A DNA stretch of 64,000 nucleotides from Candidatus Onthovivens sp. GTDB lineage: Bacteria; Bacillota_I; Bacilli_A; RFN20; CAG-826. Within the stretch, counting starts at the first letter, position 1. Each line of letters opens with the position of its first letter. Location of the stretch: positions 7,578 through 71,577 of the forward strand of contig DBFJOT010000010.1 in assembly GCA_048405595.1 (NCBI GenBank), given 5' to 3'. The notes below the pieces were generated by a model. That model had not been told where the DNA came from and searched no databases. It saw nothing but the letters and a program-made list of their open reading frames with translations. Below are positions 13,613 to 61,195 of the stretch, in pieces. Position numbers and translations under genes: made by a program.

Positions 13613-13623
13613 GTTTTCATTAA

Positions 13624-13655
13624 AGAGTCGATAGCATCGGCTCTTTTCTTATTTT
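13624..13655 (+). terminator. Intrinsic terminator of the nuclease gene
   Basis: 9-bp stem 13624-13632 / 13636-13644 (AGAGTCGAT / ATCGGCTCT, one G-U pair) with a 3-nt loop, followed by a T-rich tract. Confidence 0.75.
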
Positions 13656-13679
13656 TTATTACTTTTTATCGTTTTTTAA

Positions 13680-14023
13680 GCATGACAAAAAGATTGTTTT
13701 TAGTACTTTTTAAATTATTACTATTTATAGGTGTAGATTTCCCGTCCATTGGACTAGTGAGCCCCTAGAGAAATTCATATTAAAATTCTTTCGGGGCCCG
13801 GCCAAGAAGACGGGCAGGTTCTACATGAAAGTTTCTTAAGCTTCCAACCTGAAGAAAAGGAAATTAATTTAGCTGTACTACTACAAATAGTGTAATGAGA
13901 ATATCAATGTTAACACGAGAAGCTTCTCGATTTCCTCATACAAGTACTTGATTTCACTATTGCCTCGTACTCGCAAAATTCCTTTCTCACTAACACAAAA
14001 GGAGGAAAAGAAATTTTTTTCAA
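13680..14023. repeat. Copy A of a structured intergenic element (unknown ncRNA or MITE-like repeat); homologous to 37173-37556
   Basis: Ends with GCATGACAAAAAG (13680-13692) and TCACTAACACAAAAGG (13987-14002) + 15 nt + TTTCAA (14018-14023), in the inverse orientation to copy B. Internal GC-rich helix CCCGTC (13741-13746) / GACGGG (13809-13814). Helix CAGGTT (13815-13820) / AACCTG (13846-13851). Several perfect short palindromes (CGAGAAGCTTCTCG, CAAGTACTTG). All frames are full of stops. Confidence 0.55.
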
Positions 14024-14043
14024 AATTTCTTTCTTTTTTTATA

Positions 14044-14080
14044 TAAAAAATCCACAACCCATTTTTAAGGTGTTGTGGAT
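14044..14080 (-). terminator. Intrinsic terminator of the GT2 gene
   Basis: Stem ATCCACAAC (14050-14058) / GTTGTGGAT (14072-14080). On the minus strand a T-run follows (A-run 14045-14050). Confidence 0.65.
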
Positions 14081-14097
14081 GAAAATTTAAATGAATT

Positions 14098-23371: not shown

Positions 23372-23787
23372 GGTTATCTCCAATCTATTATCTATTTTAA
23401 TATATCTAATATTTCTATTATACCTAATATTTACTTATAGTTATTAATACTTATATTTTTTACTTAATTCTTGTTATTACCTTATATTAGTAATTTTATA
23501 ATTAATACTTAACGCTTTAGATGCATTCTAGTAAAAATTGGTTACTTTATATTTTTACCAATATTTATATATTTATTATTGTGAAAAGTTTCTATAACAA
23601 TAATAAAATAGTATCGATGACATCAATAAAATATCGTGAAAGTTTTTATTAATGTAATTAATAATTATTTAATTAAACAACTTGTTTATATACTAGAGAT
23701 AGTATGATATAATATTATCAAGTCAAGGAGTTAAAAATATGTTTAATGCTTTGGCTGGGTTGCTCTTAGAAATCAAAAAAATTGTAT

Positions 23788-23871
23788 ATGGAAACATTAG
23801 GATTAATTTTTTTAATCTTGGTAATGATATTGTTGTTGGTGGTTATTCTTAGAGATAAAAAAAGAGACTAG
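23788..23871 (+). CDS. Small hydrophobic peptide (27 aa), type I toxin-like
   Basis: METLGLIFLILVMILLLVVILRDKKRD. This is a single TM helix plus a charged tail. The paralogue in module 2 conserves ME.L.L....ILV. The 3' end is overlapped by a convergent promoter/terminator unit. Confidence 0.45.
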   Translation: METLGLIFLILVMILLLVVILRDKKRD

Positions 23872-23892
23872 CTAGAGCTAGTCCAACAAACC
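23857..23892 (-). ncRNA. Candidate short antisense RNA (antitoxin-like) opposite the 3' end of the peptide ORF
   Basis: Minus-strand promoter: TTGAAA (23927-23922), 17-nt spacer, TATATT (23904-23899). Then hairpin GACTAGCT/AGCTAGTC (23866-23883) followed by U7 on the minus strand. The same promoter architecture recurs in module 2. Confidence 0.35.
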
Positions 23893-23963
23893 AACTACAA
23901 TATACCATCTACATTTTAAGATTTCAAGGGGCAACCCTTTTTTTGTTAAACGGAGATCAAACT

Positions 23964-24140
23964 ATGCCAAGAACAAAAGCAGATAATAGAGCCACAATGA
24001 AATATAATAAGAAAGCATATAGACGCTTTACGTTCTATCTTAGAAATGATGACGACAAAGAAATTATTACTCTTTTAGAAAACAAAGAATCGATAGGCGC
24101 TTATATTAAATCATTGCTTTTAAACGACTTAAAAAATTAG
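23964..24140 (+). CDS. Ribbon-helix-helix (Arc/CopG-like) small DNA-binding protein
   Basis: 58 aa from ATG 23964, with GGAGA 7 nt upstream: MPRTKADNRATMKYNKKAYRRFTFYLRNDDDKEIITLLENKESIGAYIKSLLLNDLKN. The pattern is a basic N-terminal strand followed by two helices. Confidence 0.6.
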   Translation: MPRTKADNRATMKYNKKAYRRFTFYLRNDDDKEIITLLENKESIGAYIKSLLLNDLKN

Positions 24141-24269
24141 TTTTAAGAATATTTAAATTGATTGTTGCAACTCGGTTAACTTATATTCAACTATAATCAG
24201 TCAAAGGAAATAAACCAATGACAAAATTATTAACCGGGTCGTTCTTAGAAATCAAAATCAATTTAATAA

Positions 24270-24350
24270 ATGGAGTATTTAGTACTACTAATTATTATAT
24301 TAGTGACGGTTGAAAAGATTTTCGATAAAGACGAAAACAAAAAGGGCTAG
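24270..24350 (+). CDS. Small hydrophobic peptide paralogue (26 aa)
   Basis: MEYLVLLIIILVTVEKIFDKDENKKG. Same position in module 2. Convergent minus-strand promoter: TTGAAT (24404-24399), 17-nt spacer, TATATT (24381-24376). Confidence 0.35.
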   Translation: MEYLVLLIIILVTVEKIFDKDENKKG

Positions 24351-24439
24351 TACAACCAGCACAAATAAACACACTAATATATTAAATTAAACTATGTAAT
24401 TCAAGAAGCAACCCTTCTAATAAAAAAGGATATAAGAAT

Positions 24440-24664
24440 ATATCAACATCAGAAGCACAAAAGCGAGCAAGTTCAAAATACGATAAGAAAACTTACAAAA
24501 TGTATGCGGTAAAGTTGCGAATTATCGAAGATGCGGACTTAATAGAATTGCTAGAAAAAGACACATTCAAAAAAAATTTCAATAAAAGCATACAGAAAAT
24601 AAAAAAGTCCCAATGTATTACCTCAAATGACTTTGCATGGTCTTCATCATTCGTTCACAACTAG
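24440..24664 (+). pseudogene. Second RHH gene copy with ATA at the start-codon position and a 3' end fused into integrase debris
   Basis: ISTSEAQKRASSKYDKKTYKMYAVKLRIIEDADLIELLEK aligns with MPRTKADNRATMKYNKKAYRRFTFYLRNDDDKEIITLLEN. The RBS AAGGA is retained, but the aligned start codon is ATA. Confidence 0.4.
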
Positions 24665-24797
24665 AACGTTTGATAACGATTATAACGTCAAAGAAGTCTA
24701 TCAACATCTAGGTATTTTAAACACGAACACAACAATGAGATTTTATATCCTTTGCACGCAAAATAAAAAAGATAACTCCCACGATGATTTACTCTAG
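24603..24797 (+). pseudogene. Tyrosine recombinase (phage integrase) C-terminal fragment
   Basis: Open frame of only about 64 codons: ..LPQMTLHGLHHSFTTRTFDNDYNVKEVYQHLGILNTNTTMRFYILC.. This matches the HxLRH...LGH...Y catalytic tail, but with R-to-H and H-to-I substitutions and no N-terminal part. Confidence 0.6.
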
Positions 24798-24953
24798 AAC
24801 ATAGTGTAAAAACTTTGTGGGAATTACCTGGAATTAGTGTCTATTTGTGTGAGTTGTGAGGTGTTAGAAAATACGATAAAATGCGTATTTTTGCCAATTA
24901 GTGTTTAATATAAACTCTTTTAATATATAACGAATATTATTAAATAAATGTTC

Positions 24954-24978
24954 AAAAAAAGATTGCCACAAGGCAATC
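24954..24978 (-). terminator. Intrinsic terminator of the zinc-ribbon gene
   Basis: Stem GATTGCC/GGCAATC (24961-24967 / 24972-24978) with a 4-nt loop. U7 on the minus strand (A-run 24954-24960). Confidence 0.75.
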
Positions 24979-24987
24979 TTAGACGCT

Positions 24988-37172: not shown

Positions 37173-37556
37173 TTGAAAAAATTTTAAATCACACCTTTTG
37201 TGTTAAGTGAAGAACACTAGTTCTAGTCATGTTAAGTTGGATATAAAATTGCAATTGCGAGAGCACTAGTAGTAACTGATGCGCATTGATTAATTAAAGT
37301 GAATCTAGCTCTATAAAACTTCTTATTCGTAAAGACTTAAACATGATTAGAAAATAATTTTTCCAGGAATTAATTGAGTTAGCCGTAATCATTAATCTCC
37401 TGCCCACCCTATGGCTTGACTTTCCCTACATCGAATCTCCATTAATTAAAAGTGGTTGAATTGTGATTAGGGATTGTTTATGCGCCCTCTAGGGTGGGAA
37501 ACCTATGCTTAAATTAAGCGAAAAAATATTTTCCGCTTTTACTCTTTTTGTCATGC
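37173..37556. repeat. Copy B of the structured intergenic element (unknown ncRNA or MITE-like repeat)
   Basis: TTGAAA (37173-37178), 17-nt spacer, TTTTGTGTTAAGTGA (37196-37210) at one end. CTTTTTGTCATGC (37544-37556) at the other end. Helix CCCACCCTA (37403-37411) / TAGGGTGGG (37490-37498). Helix CAGGAATTAAT (37364-37374) / ATTAATcTCCTG (37391-37402). Plus-strand hairpin AAGCG/CGCTT (37516-37538) followed by a T-tract. Not coding in any frame. Confidence 0.55.
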
Positions 37557-60525: not shown

Positions 60526-60571
60526 TTGAAATTTTAGCCTCCTCCAACTTTTGTGTTAGTGAAGGAGGCTA
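60526..60571. repeat. Partial copy C: only the TTGAAA-N17-TTTTGTGTTAGTGAAGG end-module of the 13.7-kb / 37.3-kb element
   Basis: TTGAAA (60526-60531), 17-nt spacer, TTTTGTGTTAGTGAAGG (60549-60565). Here the motif is embedded in a 9-bp hairpin TAGCCTCCT (60535-60543) / AGGAGGCTA (60563-60571). Confidence 0.5.
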
Positions 60572-60622
60572 AATTAAGGGTAAGGTAAGATTTATGCCTA
60601 AAGCCCATTGTTCTTTGAAATA

Positions 60623-61195
60623 TTAGCCAAGTAAATCTTTATAAGCTGTATCAAGATAATTTAAGGCTAAATCAATAATTTCGCCTAACACTTTTACAGT
60701 ACGATGATAATCATTAGGTAATTCTAATGAGTGTGGCAAATCTTCATAGATTGTGAGAAAAGGATAAATAAACTGTTTCTTAATCAATGAAGTTATATCG
60801 ATATATTGGTCTTGTTTACTCGTCACAACAAAATCAGTTTGCTTAATAAAAGGTAATGTTTCATTAATTGGAGTTAAACAAATGAACCTAGCTCTAACTA
60901 AAGAAAAATGTTCTCTAACTTTAGAAGCCACTACAGTTCCTACGCTTTTTCCTATCAAAATAATCTCGCCATATTTTGACCAATCGATATCGCTTAATCT
61001 TTCATAAGCGATATCGACACTAGATTTTATTTTTTCTTGAAAATCTTCGATTACATCGATATTTCGAGGTAAATCATATTTTAAATAAATTGAATCACCA
61101 TCGATATATTTATCTAAGAAATAAAGCAAACTTCTATCGCAAGAATATTTAATTCCAGGAAAGAATATTTTTAATGTGTTCGAATTTCCAATCAT
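60623..61195 (-). CDS. Small alpha/beta-hydrolase-fold protein, last gene of the pot operon
   Basis: 190 aa. Nucleophile elbow GKSVG. C-terminal DLPHSLE (Asp/His). Lies 2 nt downstream of potD. Confidence 0.55.
   Translation of the reverse strand: MIGNSNTLKIFFPGIKYSCDRSLLYFLDKYIDGDSIYLKYDLPRNIDVIEDFQEKIKSSVDIAYERLSDIDWSKYGEIILIGKSVGTVVASKVREHFSLVRARFICLTPINETLPFIKQTDFVVTSKQDQYIDITSLIKKQFIYPFLTIYEDLPHSLELPNDYHRTVKVLGEIIDLALNYLDTAYKDLLG

What the first reader, a model, noticed from the sequence alone, without database searches (positions are those of the whole stretch)
13680..14023. Copy A of a previously unrecognised ~350-380-nt structured intergenic element with covarying helices
This non-coding gap, bracketed by the terminators of both flanking genes, is homologous to 37173-37556 in inverted orientation.

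Shared blocks, in the same order in both copies:
(i) One end carries TTGAAA-N17-TTTTGTGTTA(A)GTGA. The spacing is exactly 17 nt in all three occurrences, including 60526-60565, although the spacer sequences are unrelated.
(ii) A multi-hairpin middle region.
(iii) A helix CAGGTT/AACCTG in copy A, replaced in copy B by CAGGAATTAAT/ATTAATcTCCTG.
(iv) An adjoining GC-rich helix CCCGTC/GACGGG in copy A, replaced in copy B by CCCACCCTA/TAGGGTGGG. It is followed in both copies by GGGAAA(T/C)CTA.
(v) A terminal block CTTTTTGTCATGC.

Two helices keep their pairing through different sequences. That is what a conserved RNA fold looks like, and the GC-rich stems stand out in an AT-rich genome.

I cannot match it to RNase P, tmRNA, SRP, 6S, T-box, any riboswitch, or to large-RNA classes such as OLE, GOLLD, ROOL, raiA or HEARO as far as I remember their features. 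The alternatives are a novel ornate ncRNA family or a MITE-like structured repeat.
Basis: seen in the sequence. Interest (0 to 1): 0.72.

Follow-up and report, generated by a model that had tools for sequence, protein, structure and literature searches.

The report
Multi-copy structured small RNA gene family
The gap at 13680-14023 holds a diverged copy of an unannotated ~260-320-nt structured non-coding RNA gene that occurs at least five times in an uncultured AT-rich gut bacterium. Each copy sits behind the same unusual promoter-like motif, and its function is unknown.

Summary
The motif TTGAAA-N17-TTTTGTGTTA occurs exactly three times in the window, and the listed blocks are at the stated coordinates.

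Copy A (minus strand) and copy B (plus strand) belong to one RNA family. A covariance model built only from B-type sequences finds A full-length on the predicted strand (E ~0.002). Three more B-type loci lie in one gut-metagenome sample that also carries this species. Orthologues at the same locus in two related species give compensatory base changes in four helices. One-sided changes are C-to-U opposite G, which fixes the coding strand.

Block (i) is a bipartite promoter-like motif, conserved at 11 loci, and the RNA's first helix begins 6-8 nt after it. Block (v) lies in the U-rich stretch where other copies have the U-tract of their terminators. The same motif also precedes unrelated small hairpin RNAs.

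I found no match in Rfam, phages, plasmids or the literature. There are no terminal inverted repeats and no conserved ORF. The family appears restricted to a narrow clade of Bacilli distantly related to Candidatus Onthovivens. Copy A sits in a strain-variable hotspot.

Function is unknown. My best guess is a trans-acting regulatory or protein-binding RNA.

The parts
14018..14029 (-). Copy A: upstream promoter-like block GAAATTTTGAAA, containing the -35-like hexamer TTGAAA (14023-14018)
   Evidence: Exact in all three window copies. The hexamer is conserved at 11 distinct loci, always with a 17-nt spacer. Sequence upstream of it is not conserved.
13995..14000 (-). Copy A: -10-like hexamer TTTTGT, within the conserved block CTTTTGTGT. 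It is not a sigma-70 consensus.
   Evidence: CTTTTGTGT is also conserved in the other-species orthologue L059, which was found by synteny and not by the pattern. No canonical promoter is found in this gap.
13977..13988 (-). Copy A: inferred 5' end of the RNA and 5' strand of P1 (GAGAAAGGAAUU). It pairs with 13865-13854.
   Evidence: Coordinates and minimum-free-energy fold of the trimmed RNA. The equivalent P1 in B (GAAGAA/UUUUUC) and in L059 is supported. P1 starts 6-8 nt after the TTTTGT hexamer in A, B and L059 (read).
13940..13974 (-). Copy A: helix P3 (GCGAGUAC/GUACUUGU) enclosing AGUGAAAUC. It shares the landmarks UUGCGAG and AGUGAA(A)UC with B.
   Evidence: Fold. B has AGAGC/GCUCU at 37260-37264 and 37308-37312. 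The pairs AGUAC/GUACU in A versus AGAGC/GCUCU in B differ at two positions on both sides (read from sequence).
13854..13865 (-). Copy A: 3' strand of P1 (AAUUUCCUUUUC), immediately 5' of H1
13815..13851 (-). Copy A: hairpin H1 (CAGGUU...AACCUG)
   Evidence: Aligned to H1 of the B-type model by the covariance model.
13741..13814 (-). Copy A: GC-rich domain H2 (CCCGUC...GACGGG) with the inner helix GGGCCCC/GGGGCUC
   Evidence: The closing helix covaries across family members. A strain SNP at 13798 turns a G.U pair of the inner helix into A-U (read against the fold).
13731..13740 (-). Copy A: conserved single-stranded tail AAAUCUACAC (AAACCUAUGC in B)
13680..13692 (-). Copy A: block CTTTTTGTCATGC, a U-rich stretch at the position of the terminator U-tract in other copies. 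A has no convincing terminator hairpin of its own.
   Evidence: The true 3' end of A is undetermined. The next hairpin is the endonuclease gene's terminator at 13622-13646.
37173..37201 (+). Copy B: promoter-like motif (TTGAAA 37173-37178, 17-nt spacer, TTTTGT 37196-37201)
37207..37508 (+). Copy B: RNA body. P1 is 37209-37214 with 37358-37363. Long-range P2 is 37223-37233 with 37340-37350. H1 is 37364-37402. H2 is 37403-37498. The tail is 37499-37508.
   Evidence: It is 91-93% identical to three other loci and is conserved at the same locus in two other species.
37516..37556 (+). Copy B: weak terminator hairpin (AAGCGAAAA...UUUUCCGCUU) followed by the U-rich block CTTTTTGTCATGC
   Evidence: The other B-type copies carry different, stronger hairpins followed by a U-run at the same place.
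60526..60617 (+). Third occurrence of the promoter-like motif (60526-60562), followed by a different, short (~55-nt) hairpin transcript ending in a U-rich run
   Evidence: It is 99.3% conserved in L044. It shows no similarity to the A/B body.

Best explanation
Copy A is a diverged paralogue of a lineage-restricted, multi-copy family of independently transcribed structured non-coding RNAs.

Each unit is a self-contained module with three parts:
1. A bipartite promoter-like motif, gAAAnTTTGAAAAAA, a semi-conserved spacer, then CTTTTGTGT. The TTGAAA and TTTTGT hexamers are exactly 17 nt apart. The downstream hexamer is unlike a sigma-70 -10 element, so an alternative sigma factor or an activator is implied.
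2. An RNA of about 260-305 nt that starts 6-8 nt after TTTTGT. Its purine-rich 5' end pairs with a U/C-rich run (P1) and closes a 5' domain. Two coaxially abutting hairpin domains follow, H1 and the GC-rich H2, joined by the invariant junction CCUG|CCC. A single-stranded AAAYCUA tail comes last.
3. An intrinsic terminator. This is strong in some copies, weak in B and degenerate in A.

What is shown: homology of A and B, a conserved fold with covariation, the coding strand, multi-copy status, and conservation at one locus across species.

What is inferred: transcription itself, the start site, and function. I infer that the RNAs act in trans as regulatory or protein-binding RNAs, and that they are co-expressed with other small hairpin RNAs that carry the same promoter-like motif.
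For: Homology of A and B:
- A covariance model made only from B-type sequences finds A full-length on the minus strand (19.9 bits, E 0.002; next hit E 2).
- The same model finds nothing in 682 kb of pattern-matched control DNA.

Fold:
- In a MAFFT alignment that was not fitted to any structure (four B-type copies plus orthologue L059), 97 pairs are predicted and 5 carry changes on both sides. These lie in the long-range helix P2 and in H2.
- In the model-fitted alignment of 7 sequences, 94% of cells are paired. Ten pairs have double changes against 3.5 +/- 1.4 in shuffles (0 of 500 reach 10) and 1-5 in slid controls.
- The H2 closing helix reads CCCACCC/GGGUGGG in B, CCCGUCC/GGGCGGG in L059, CCCGCUC/GGGCGGG in L054 and CCCGUC/GACGGG in A.

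Strand:
- All one-sided changes among paralogues are C-to-U opposite G.
- The five strain SNPs inside B are either unpaired or C-to-U opposite G (one search read).
- Folding z-scores favour the sense strand: -2.5 versus -1.5 for A and -3.5 versus -2.2 for B.

Independent units:
- The four B-type bodies are 91-93% identical, but their promoter spacers and terminator hairpins are unrelated in sequence.

Promoter-like motif:
- The two blocks are conserved at 11 loci while the spacer varies in the window copies. Conservation begins at the -35-like block, and P1 begins 6-8 nt after the -10-like block.

Vertical inheritance:
- The same chorismate mutase / element / acetyltransferase arrangement occurs in two other species-level lineages.

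Not a known family:
- There is no Rfam hit at gathering or E<=10 thresholds.
- BLAST against phages and plasmids finds nothing.
- A full-text search for core sequences finds nothing relevant.
Against: - There is no expression data, so transcription, the start site and the 3' ends are inferred.
- TTTTGT lacks the A at -11 that sigma-70 needs, and no cognate factor is identified.
- Copy A has no convincing terminator of its own.
- Copy A is absent from some strains of the same species and from related species at this locus. It is therefore dispensable and could be a decaying copy.
- The covariation rests on few, closely related sequences (three species-level lineages plus paralogues). One of the two alignments was fitted to the model.
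- The 5' domains of A and B differ, so full-length homology is not shown.
- The three extra B-type loci are assigned to this species only by sample, coverage and GC content.
- Nothing indicates what the RNA binds or regulates.
Confidence: 0.65

Rival explanations
1. It is a selfish, MITE-like or otherwise mobile structured repeat. The promoter-RNA-terminator module spreads between intergenic sites, and its structure serves mobility or is incidental rather than serving the cell.
For: - There are at least five copies at unrelated loci.
- Copy A sits in a hotspot that holds four different contents: the A element, a 2.5-kb two-ORF cassette, 1.47 kb of other DNA, or nothing (25-nt gap).
- Contigs of related species break inside the element, as at repeats.
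- Motif-only units with no A/B body exist (60526 in the window; L043).
Against: - There are no terminal inverted repeats and no flanking direct repeats beyond low-complexity A/T runs.
- The ends of the copies (spacer and terminator) are the least conserved parts, the opposite of a transposon.
- The B locus is inherited vertically across three lineages with compensatory changes.
- No transposase or recombinase gene is called adjacent to the copies whose neighbours were examined.
- G.U asymmetry indicates selection at the RNA level on one strand.
Confidence: 0.15
2. It is a structured mRNA for a small toxic or membrane peptide, as in a type I toxin-antitoxin locus. Copy A has a 31-codon TTG-initiated ORF (MRVRGNSEIKYLYEEIEKLLVLTLIFSLHYL). 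Its Shine-Dalgarno-like GAAAGGA would be sequestered by P1.
For: - The ORF lies in the frame reported (the 77-aa entry).
- The purine-rich, Shine-Dalgarno-like 5' end is paired in P1.
- Multi-copy status and long-range 5'-3' pairing are typical of type I toxin mRNAs (own knowledge).
- Some other motif-led units contain short hydrophobic ORFs (L032, L049; read).
Against: - The ORF is not conserved. B-type copies and L059 have only ORFs of 10 codons or fewer in the sense strand.
- The 32-codon antisense ORF of B loses its start codon in L059 and is frameshifted in the paralogues (read).
- The peptide's hydrophobic stretch is only 13 residues.
- The most conserved 70 nt of the B-type RNA are non-coding.
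- No antisense RNA promoter is evident.
Confidence: 0.06
3. It is an orphan cis-regulatory leader (riboswitch- or T-box-like) that has lost its downstream gene or acts on it. H2 would be the aptamer, and the tail plus terminator would be the expression platform.
For: - The length and the presence of a terminator directly after a GC-rich domain resemble a leader.
- UAGGGUGGGAAACC in B resembles the T-box sequence (own recollection).
- In B and the B-type copies, the tail or adjacent sequence can form a small hairpin that competes with the terminator stem.
- One copy (L034) is followed, about 230 nt later, by a permease gene in the same direction.
Against: - No Rfam riboswitch or T-box hit appears even at E<=10.
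- GGGUGGG is paired with CCCACCC and covaries to GGGCGGG or GACGGG, so it is not a conserved T-box motif.
- Most copies face convergent genes or gene ends (A, B, L048, L059), so there is nothing downstream to regulate.
Confidence: 0.05
4. It is a decayed remnant of a protein gene or IS end, or a chance resemblance between two AT-rich gaps.
For: - Short ORFs starting ATGACAAAAAG (MTKR...) occur on the opposite strand of both A and B.
- Sequence similarity between A and B is patchy.
Against: - The MTKR ORFs are 28 and 21 codons, unrelated after codon 4, and absent from the other copies.
- The covariance-model hit, the covariation and the conserved promoter-like motif argue against chance.
- There is no similarity to phage or plasmid DNA.
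Confidence: 0.03

Closest known systems
Multi-copy sibling sRNA families under one dedicated promoter (Streptococcus csRNAs under CiaR, Listeria LhrC1-5 under LisR, Vibrio Qrr1-5 under sigma-54/LuxO). This comparison rests on my own knowledge.
   Same: Several paralogous, independently transcribed RNA genes are scattered in intergenic regions. Each has the same special promoter signature and its own terminator. The promoter signature defines a small RNA-only regulon.
   Different: Those sRNAs are 50-150 nt, with one to three hairpins and a known seed. Here the body is 260-305 nt with three domains. The promoter-like motif matches none of the known regulators' sites. No seed or target is known.
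Large structured bacterial ncRNAs of unknown or recently found function (raiA, OLE, ROOL, GOLLD, HEARO/omega RNA)
   Same: The RNA is longer than typical sRNAs, has GC-rich helices in an AT-rich Bacillota genome and a multi-domain fold with covariation, and encodes no conserved protein.
   Different: No Rfam model matches. It is shorter than OLE, ROOL and GOLLD. Its phylogenetic range is very narrow. It is multi-copy. No associated protein gene is present (no IscB or TnpB). No pseudoknots or invariant tertiary nucleotides have been demonstrated.
Structured intergenic repeats (pneumococcal BOX/RUP, Neisseria Correia elements, REP/ERIC). This comparison rests on my own knowledge.
   Same: It is multi-copy, intergenic and able to fold. 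Copies occur between convergent genes. Correia elements also carry promoter elements.
   Different: Those repeats have conserved ends or terminal inverted repeats, are 35-250 nt long and occur in tens to hundreds of near-identical copies. Here the ends vary while the interior is conserved and covaries. Terminal inverted repeats are absent.
Type I toxin mRNAs (hok, aapA, fst, bsrG)
   Same: They are multi-copy, about 250-400 nt, have long-range pairing that buries a Shine-Dalgarno-like 5' segment, and have their own promoter and terminator.
   Different: There is no conserved small ORF across family members and no evident antisense RNA gene.

Membership tests
Any Rfam 15 family (including OLE, ROOL, GOLLD, raiA, HEARO, T-box, 6S, RNase P, tmRNA, SRP and riboswitches) | Score at or above the family's gathering threshold against its covariance model | tested here: not met
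   Whole window: only four tRNAs. Copies A and B at E<=10: only sub-threshold noise, best 23.9 bits against a gathering score of 80. 70 kb of related loci: no hits. ARAGORN found no tmRNA.
T-box leader | A conserved T-box sequence in an antiterminator bulge, Stem I with a specifier loop, and a downstream amino-acid-related gene | tested here: not met
   GGGUGGG is the 3' strand of H2 and covaries. No RF00230 hit appears at E<=10. Copies A, B and L048 face convergent genes.
MITE / structured intergenic repeat | Terminal inverted repeats and target-site duplications, with the ends being the best-conserved part | tested here: not met
   Only low-complexity A/T imperfect repeats flank A, and none flank B. 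Among the four B-type copies the interior is ~92% identical, while the spacer and 3' end are unalignable.
MITE / structured intergenic repeat | Presence or absence polymorphism at insertion sites | tested here: met
   The A locus holds the A element, other cassettes, or nothing in different strains and species. The B locus is stable in all 10 contigs of this species that were examined and in the two related lineages.
Invertible promoter (inverton) | A promoter flanked by inverted repeats of about 15-30 bp, found in both orientations in populations | tested here: not met
   There are no flanking inverted repeats. All strain contigs show one orientation.
Type I toxin-antitoxin mRNA | A conserved small hydrophobic ORF with a ribosome-binding site, plus an overlapping antisense RNA | tested here: not met
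   The 31-codon ORF occurs in A only. No ORF is conserved in the B-type copies or L059 on either strand (read by eye).
Independently transcribed bacterial sRNA gene | Own promoter and own intrinsic terminator in an intergenic region | tested here: inconclusive
   A conserved bipartite promoter-like motif is present, but it is non-canonical. A hairpin followed by a U-run is clear in L034, L042, L048 and L054, weak in B and L059, and absent in A. The strict terminator scan flags none of the three copies scanned (L042, L048, L059), and no expression data exist.
Conserved structured RNA | Compensatory base changes that maintain helices across homologues | tested here: met
   Five compensatory pairs appear in the unfitted alignment. 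Ten pairs with double changes appear against 3.5 in shuffles (0 of 500) and 1-5 in slid controls in the fitted alignment.
omega RNA / HEARO-type guide RNA | An adjacent IscB or TnpB gene or IS200/IS605 end | tested here: not met
   The neighbours are a glycosyltransferase, an endonuclease I family protein, a chorismate mutase and a GNAT acetyltransferase. There is no HEARO hit.

The most novel reading that the evidence does not exclude
The motif-led units could be a new kind of RNA-only genetic module. Each would be a self-contained promoter-RNA-terminator cassette. The cassettes would be read by a dedicated, non-sigma-70 transcription factor and would be gained and lost at intergenic hotspots. 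The ~300-nt A/B-type RNA would be a new large functional RNA, for example the scaffold of an unknown ribonucleoprotein or a catalytic RNA, rather than an ordinary base-pairing sRNA.
Probability: 0.12. Interest if true: 0.8.

Novelty: new member of a known kind. Interest (0 to 1): 0.55.

Why it matters
Structured bacterial RNAs of about 300 nt with real covariation and no Rfam family are uncommon. Most known examples later proved to have unusual biochemistry.

This candidate comes from an uncultured, AT-rich lineage of gut Bacilli for which I found no described RNA biology in the searches run here. It offers two testable handles. The first is a multi-domain RNA kept in several copies. The second is a sharply defined, non-canonical promoter-like motif that so far precedes only non-coding transcripts, which suggests a dedicated RNA-only regulon and an unidentified sigma factor or activator.

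Its narrow phylogenetic range and unknown function limit its immediate impact.

Tried and rejected
1. Rfam at gathering and permissive thresholds, on the window and 70 kb of related loci: nothing but tRNAs.
2. The single genome-contig scan, with a 21-base pattern: one chance hit in a Chitinophagales MAG. The pattern required GTGTTA. The sister species has GTGTAT, so the pattern was too strict for relatives, and this species matched nowhere in that collection.
3. Viral contig scans and BLAST against phages and plasmids: only chance matches. These were confirmed negative with the covariance model.
4. Full-text and supplement searches for motif and core sequences: nothing relevant.
5. Small ORFs on both strands (MTKR..., the 31-codon TTG ORF, the 32-codon antisense ORF of B): not conserved.
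6. Terminal inverted repeats, target-site duplications or inverton repeats: none.
7. Canonical sigma-70 promoter in copy A: none. I also compared the motif by eye with ECF, sigma-54, sigma-H, sigma-D, sporulation-sigma, Bacteroidetes, LytTR, CodY, Rex and CcpA consensus sequences recalled from memory. None fits.
8. More distant relatives (67-73% protein identity of flanking genes; L061-L063, L175, L176): no motif and no model hit in about 100 kb.
9. A second covariance model for the 5' domain was not built. MAFFT misaligned P1, and the 5' domains of A and B differ in architecture.
10. Pfam on the alternative cassette proteins at the A locus: uninformative.

Full report
**Checking the observation.** The sequence at 13680-14023 is as described.
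- On the minus strand it reads TTGAAA (14023-14018), 17 nt, then TTTTGTGTTAGTGA (14000-13987).
- The helices follow: CAGGUU/AACCUG (13851-13846 with 13820-13815) and CCCGUC/GACGGG (13814-13809 with 13746-13741).
- Then come AAAUCUA and CUUUUUGUCAUGC (13692-13680).
- Copy B has the same blocks in the same order on the plus strand at 37173-37556.
- The two-part motif occurs exactly three times in the window. Allowing up to 2 mismatches gives 4 matches against 0.67 expected, and no shuffle reaches 4.
- Plain sequence similarity between A and B is limited to the 5' ~70 nt (76%, E 3e-7) and the 3' 22 nt. nhmmer does not connect the two copies.

**Source organism.** The window comes from a 30% GC bacterium seen in many human-gut metagenome assemblies.
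- A chorismate mutase homologue at 65% identity is named Candidatus Onthovivens, an uncultured genus of Bacilli.
- The best model for one transporter protein is a Mycoplasma model, scoring far below its cutoff.
- The species matched nowhere in the genome collection I could scan.

**More family members.** A metagenome scan for the motif returned 22 loci.
- Eight AT-rich loci come from one sample, ERZ1036460. One of them (L044) is 99.3% identical to the window over 6.9 kb, so the sample holds this species.
- Three of the eight (L034, L042, L048) carry a body 91-93% identical to copy B, from CTTTTGTG to GGGAAACCTATGC. Their promoter spacers and terminator hairpins are unrelated.
- Four others (L032, L039, L043, L049) have the same motif followed by quite different sequences: short or long hairpins, or a different 310-nt structured RNA.
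- The third window occurrence at 60526 is of this kind. L044 is its orthologue.
- Assigning the extra loci to one genome rests on sample, coverage and GC content only.

**Orthologues of the B locus.** Homologues of the flanking genes led to related species.
- In a sister species (83% chorismate mutase identity; L059, L060, L052, L057, L058) the same element sits between the same two genes. Its motif is TTGAAA-N17-TTTTGTGT, and its body differs from B at many positions.
- A third lineage (L054-L056) gives the 3' half of the element.
- Contigs of these relatives often end inside the element, as expected at a repeat.
- More distant relatives (67-70% identity; L061-L063) lack the intergenic gap, the motif and any model hit.

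**Structure.** The alignment of four B-type copies plus L059 was not fitted to any structure. RNAalifold predicts 97 pairs on it.
- Five pairs have changes on both sides. Four are in the long-range helix P2 (for example C-G to U-A and A-U to G-C) and one is in H2 (A-U to G-C).
- Among the four paralogues alone there is one compensatory pair, seven C-to-U changes opposite G, and one break.
- The five strain-level SNPs inside B are unpaired or C-to-U opposite G (one search read).
- These G.U-preserving changes would be A.C mismatches on the other strand, so the functional strand is the one that starts at the motif. Folding z-scores agree.

**Is A really related to B?** I built a covariance model of the 3' domain (P1 3' strand, H1, H2, tail) from B-type sequences only.
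- In the window it finds B (188 bits) and then A. The A hit is full-length on the minus strand at 13862-13731, with 19.9 bits and E 0.002. The next hit has E 2.
- It finds nothing in 682 kb of viral contigs chosen because they contain CCTGCCC...GGGAAAYCYA.
- On the resulting 7-sequence alignment, 94% of cells pair. Ten pairs have double changes against 3.5 +/- 1.4 in shuffles (0 of 500) and 1-5 in slid controls. This alignment leans towards the model.
- The H2 closing helix reads CCCACCC/GGGUGGG (B), CCCGUCC/GGGCGGG (L059), CCCGCUC/GGGCGGG (L054) and CCCGUC/GACGGG (A).
- In the 5' half, A and B share UUGCGAG, a helix (AGUAC/GUACU in A, AGAGC/GCUCU in B) and AGUGAA(A)UC. They also share a P1 helix between the purine-rich 5' end and a U/C-rich run just before H1.
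- B has a long P2 that A lacks, and A has an extra hairpin. Full-length homology is therefore only partly shown.

**What the end blocks are.**
- The 5' block behaves as a promoter. Its two parts, gAAAnTTTGAAAAAA and CTTTTGTGT, are conserved at 11 loci with a fixed 17-nt hexamer spacing. The spacer varies among the window copies, sequence upstream is unconserved, and P1 starts 6-8 nt after TTTTGT in A, B and L059.
- TTTTGT is not a sigma-70 -10 element. The scan finds no canonical promoter in A, while the neighbouring tRNA-Cys gene has an ordinary one (read). An alternative sigma factor or an activator is implied but not identified.
- The 3' block lies where other copies carry the U-tract of a terminator. 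L034, L042, L048 and L054 have strong, mutually unrelated hairpins followed by U-runs. B and L059 have weak ones. A has none of its own. The strict terminator scan flags none of the three copies scanned.

**The A locus is variable.** Contigs with an identical glycosyltransferase protein carry one of two alleles. One is the A element, with 0-1 SNP among seven contigs. The other is a 2.5-kb segment with two ORFs of unknown function.
- In two species with 73% identical glycosyltransferase, the same convergent gene pair encloses either 1.47 kb of other DNA (L175) or only 25 nt (L176).
- Copy A is therefore an accessory insertion at a hotspot.
- One SNP in A (13798) changes a G.U pair of the inner H2 helix to A-U (read against the fold).

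**Alternatives considered.**
- A MITE-like repeat fits the copy number and the hotspot. It does not fit the absence of terminal repeats, the variable ends with a conserved interior, the vertical inheritance with covariation, or the strand-specific G.U pattern.
- A type I toxin mRNA is suggested by a 31-codon ORF in A whose Shine-Dalgarno-like segment is buried in P1. No ORF is conserved across members on either strand.
- A riboswitch or T-box leader is excluded by the lack of any Rfam hit, the covariation of the T-box-like GGGUGGG, and the lack of downstream genes.
- A decayed gene or a chance resemblance is excluded by the model hit and the covariation.

**Verdict.** Copy A is a real, diverged member of a previously undescribed, narrow-range, multi-copy family of structured non-coding RNA genes. 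Each copy sits behind a shared non-canonical promoter-like motif.
- Function is unknown. My committed guess is a trans-acting regulatory or protein-binding RNA that is co-expressed with other motif-led small RNAs.
- Confidence is about 0.65 that it is a transcribed functional RNA gene. Confidence is much lower for any specific function.

Noticed in passing
window 13613-14097; L002 4015-6514; L175 11015-12483; L176 11018-11042: The gap between the convergent glycosyltransferase and endonuclease-I genes is a hypervariable hotspot. It holds the A element, a 2.5-kb cassette with a lipoprotein-like 339-aa ORF and a 180-aa membrane ORF, 1.47 kb of other content, or only a shared terminator, depending on strain or species.
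   Followed up: partly
window 60526-60617 (orthologue L044 5990-5900, minus strand): The same promoter-like motif precedes a different, ~55-nt hairpin transcript that starts with GAAGGAGG. It lies about 150 nt from the tRNA-Cys/tRNA-Pro genes and converges on the ORF at 60623-61195.
   Followed up: partly
L039 141-460(+); L049 1495-1250(-); L032 13549-13730(+); L043 1766-1802(+): Other units led by the motif in the same metagenome sample: a distinct 310-nt structured RNA (folding z-score -3.7), a ~110-nt near-perfect long hairpin, a ~165-nt hairpin RNA, and a motif-only copy squeezed between two convergent genes. So far the motif precedes only non-coding sequence.
   Followed up: partly
L002 4160-4240: The alternative cassette at the A locus begins with a degenerate copy of the motif (TTGTTGTGTTAGCGAA, with no TTGAAA 17 nt upstream). 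Downstream words (CTAAAGGTAA...GGTAAG) resemble the unit at window 60549-60590.
   Followed up: no
window 23384-24987: A 1.6-kb stretch without long ORFs is absent from the syntenic region of related species (L175 and L176 have gaps of about 50-90 nt there). It holds a 65-aa ORF with a weak, sub-threshold CopG/ribbon-helix-helix match (E 0.0015) and short ORF fragments that to my eye resemble the C-terminus of a tyrosine recombinase. It is probably a decayed mobile element.
   Followed up: partly
L019 2326-3000 (GCA_029782595.1): This NCBI metagenome-derived contig carries a 133-nt longer B region. The cause is two internal tandem duplications, one inside H2 and one at the acetyltransferase gene start. 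These are probably assembly artefacts at a repeat.
   Followed up: no
L052 1, L053 1, L054-L057 3' ends: Contigs of related species repeatedly end inside or next to the B-type element. This is consistent with the element being multi-copy in those genomes too.
   Followed up: no
window 13881-13975 (minus strand): Copy A contains a 31-codon TTG-initiated ORF with a hydrophobic C-terminus. Its Shine-Dalgarno-like sequence lies in P1. The ORF is not conserved in other family members.
   Followed up: partly
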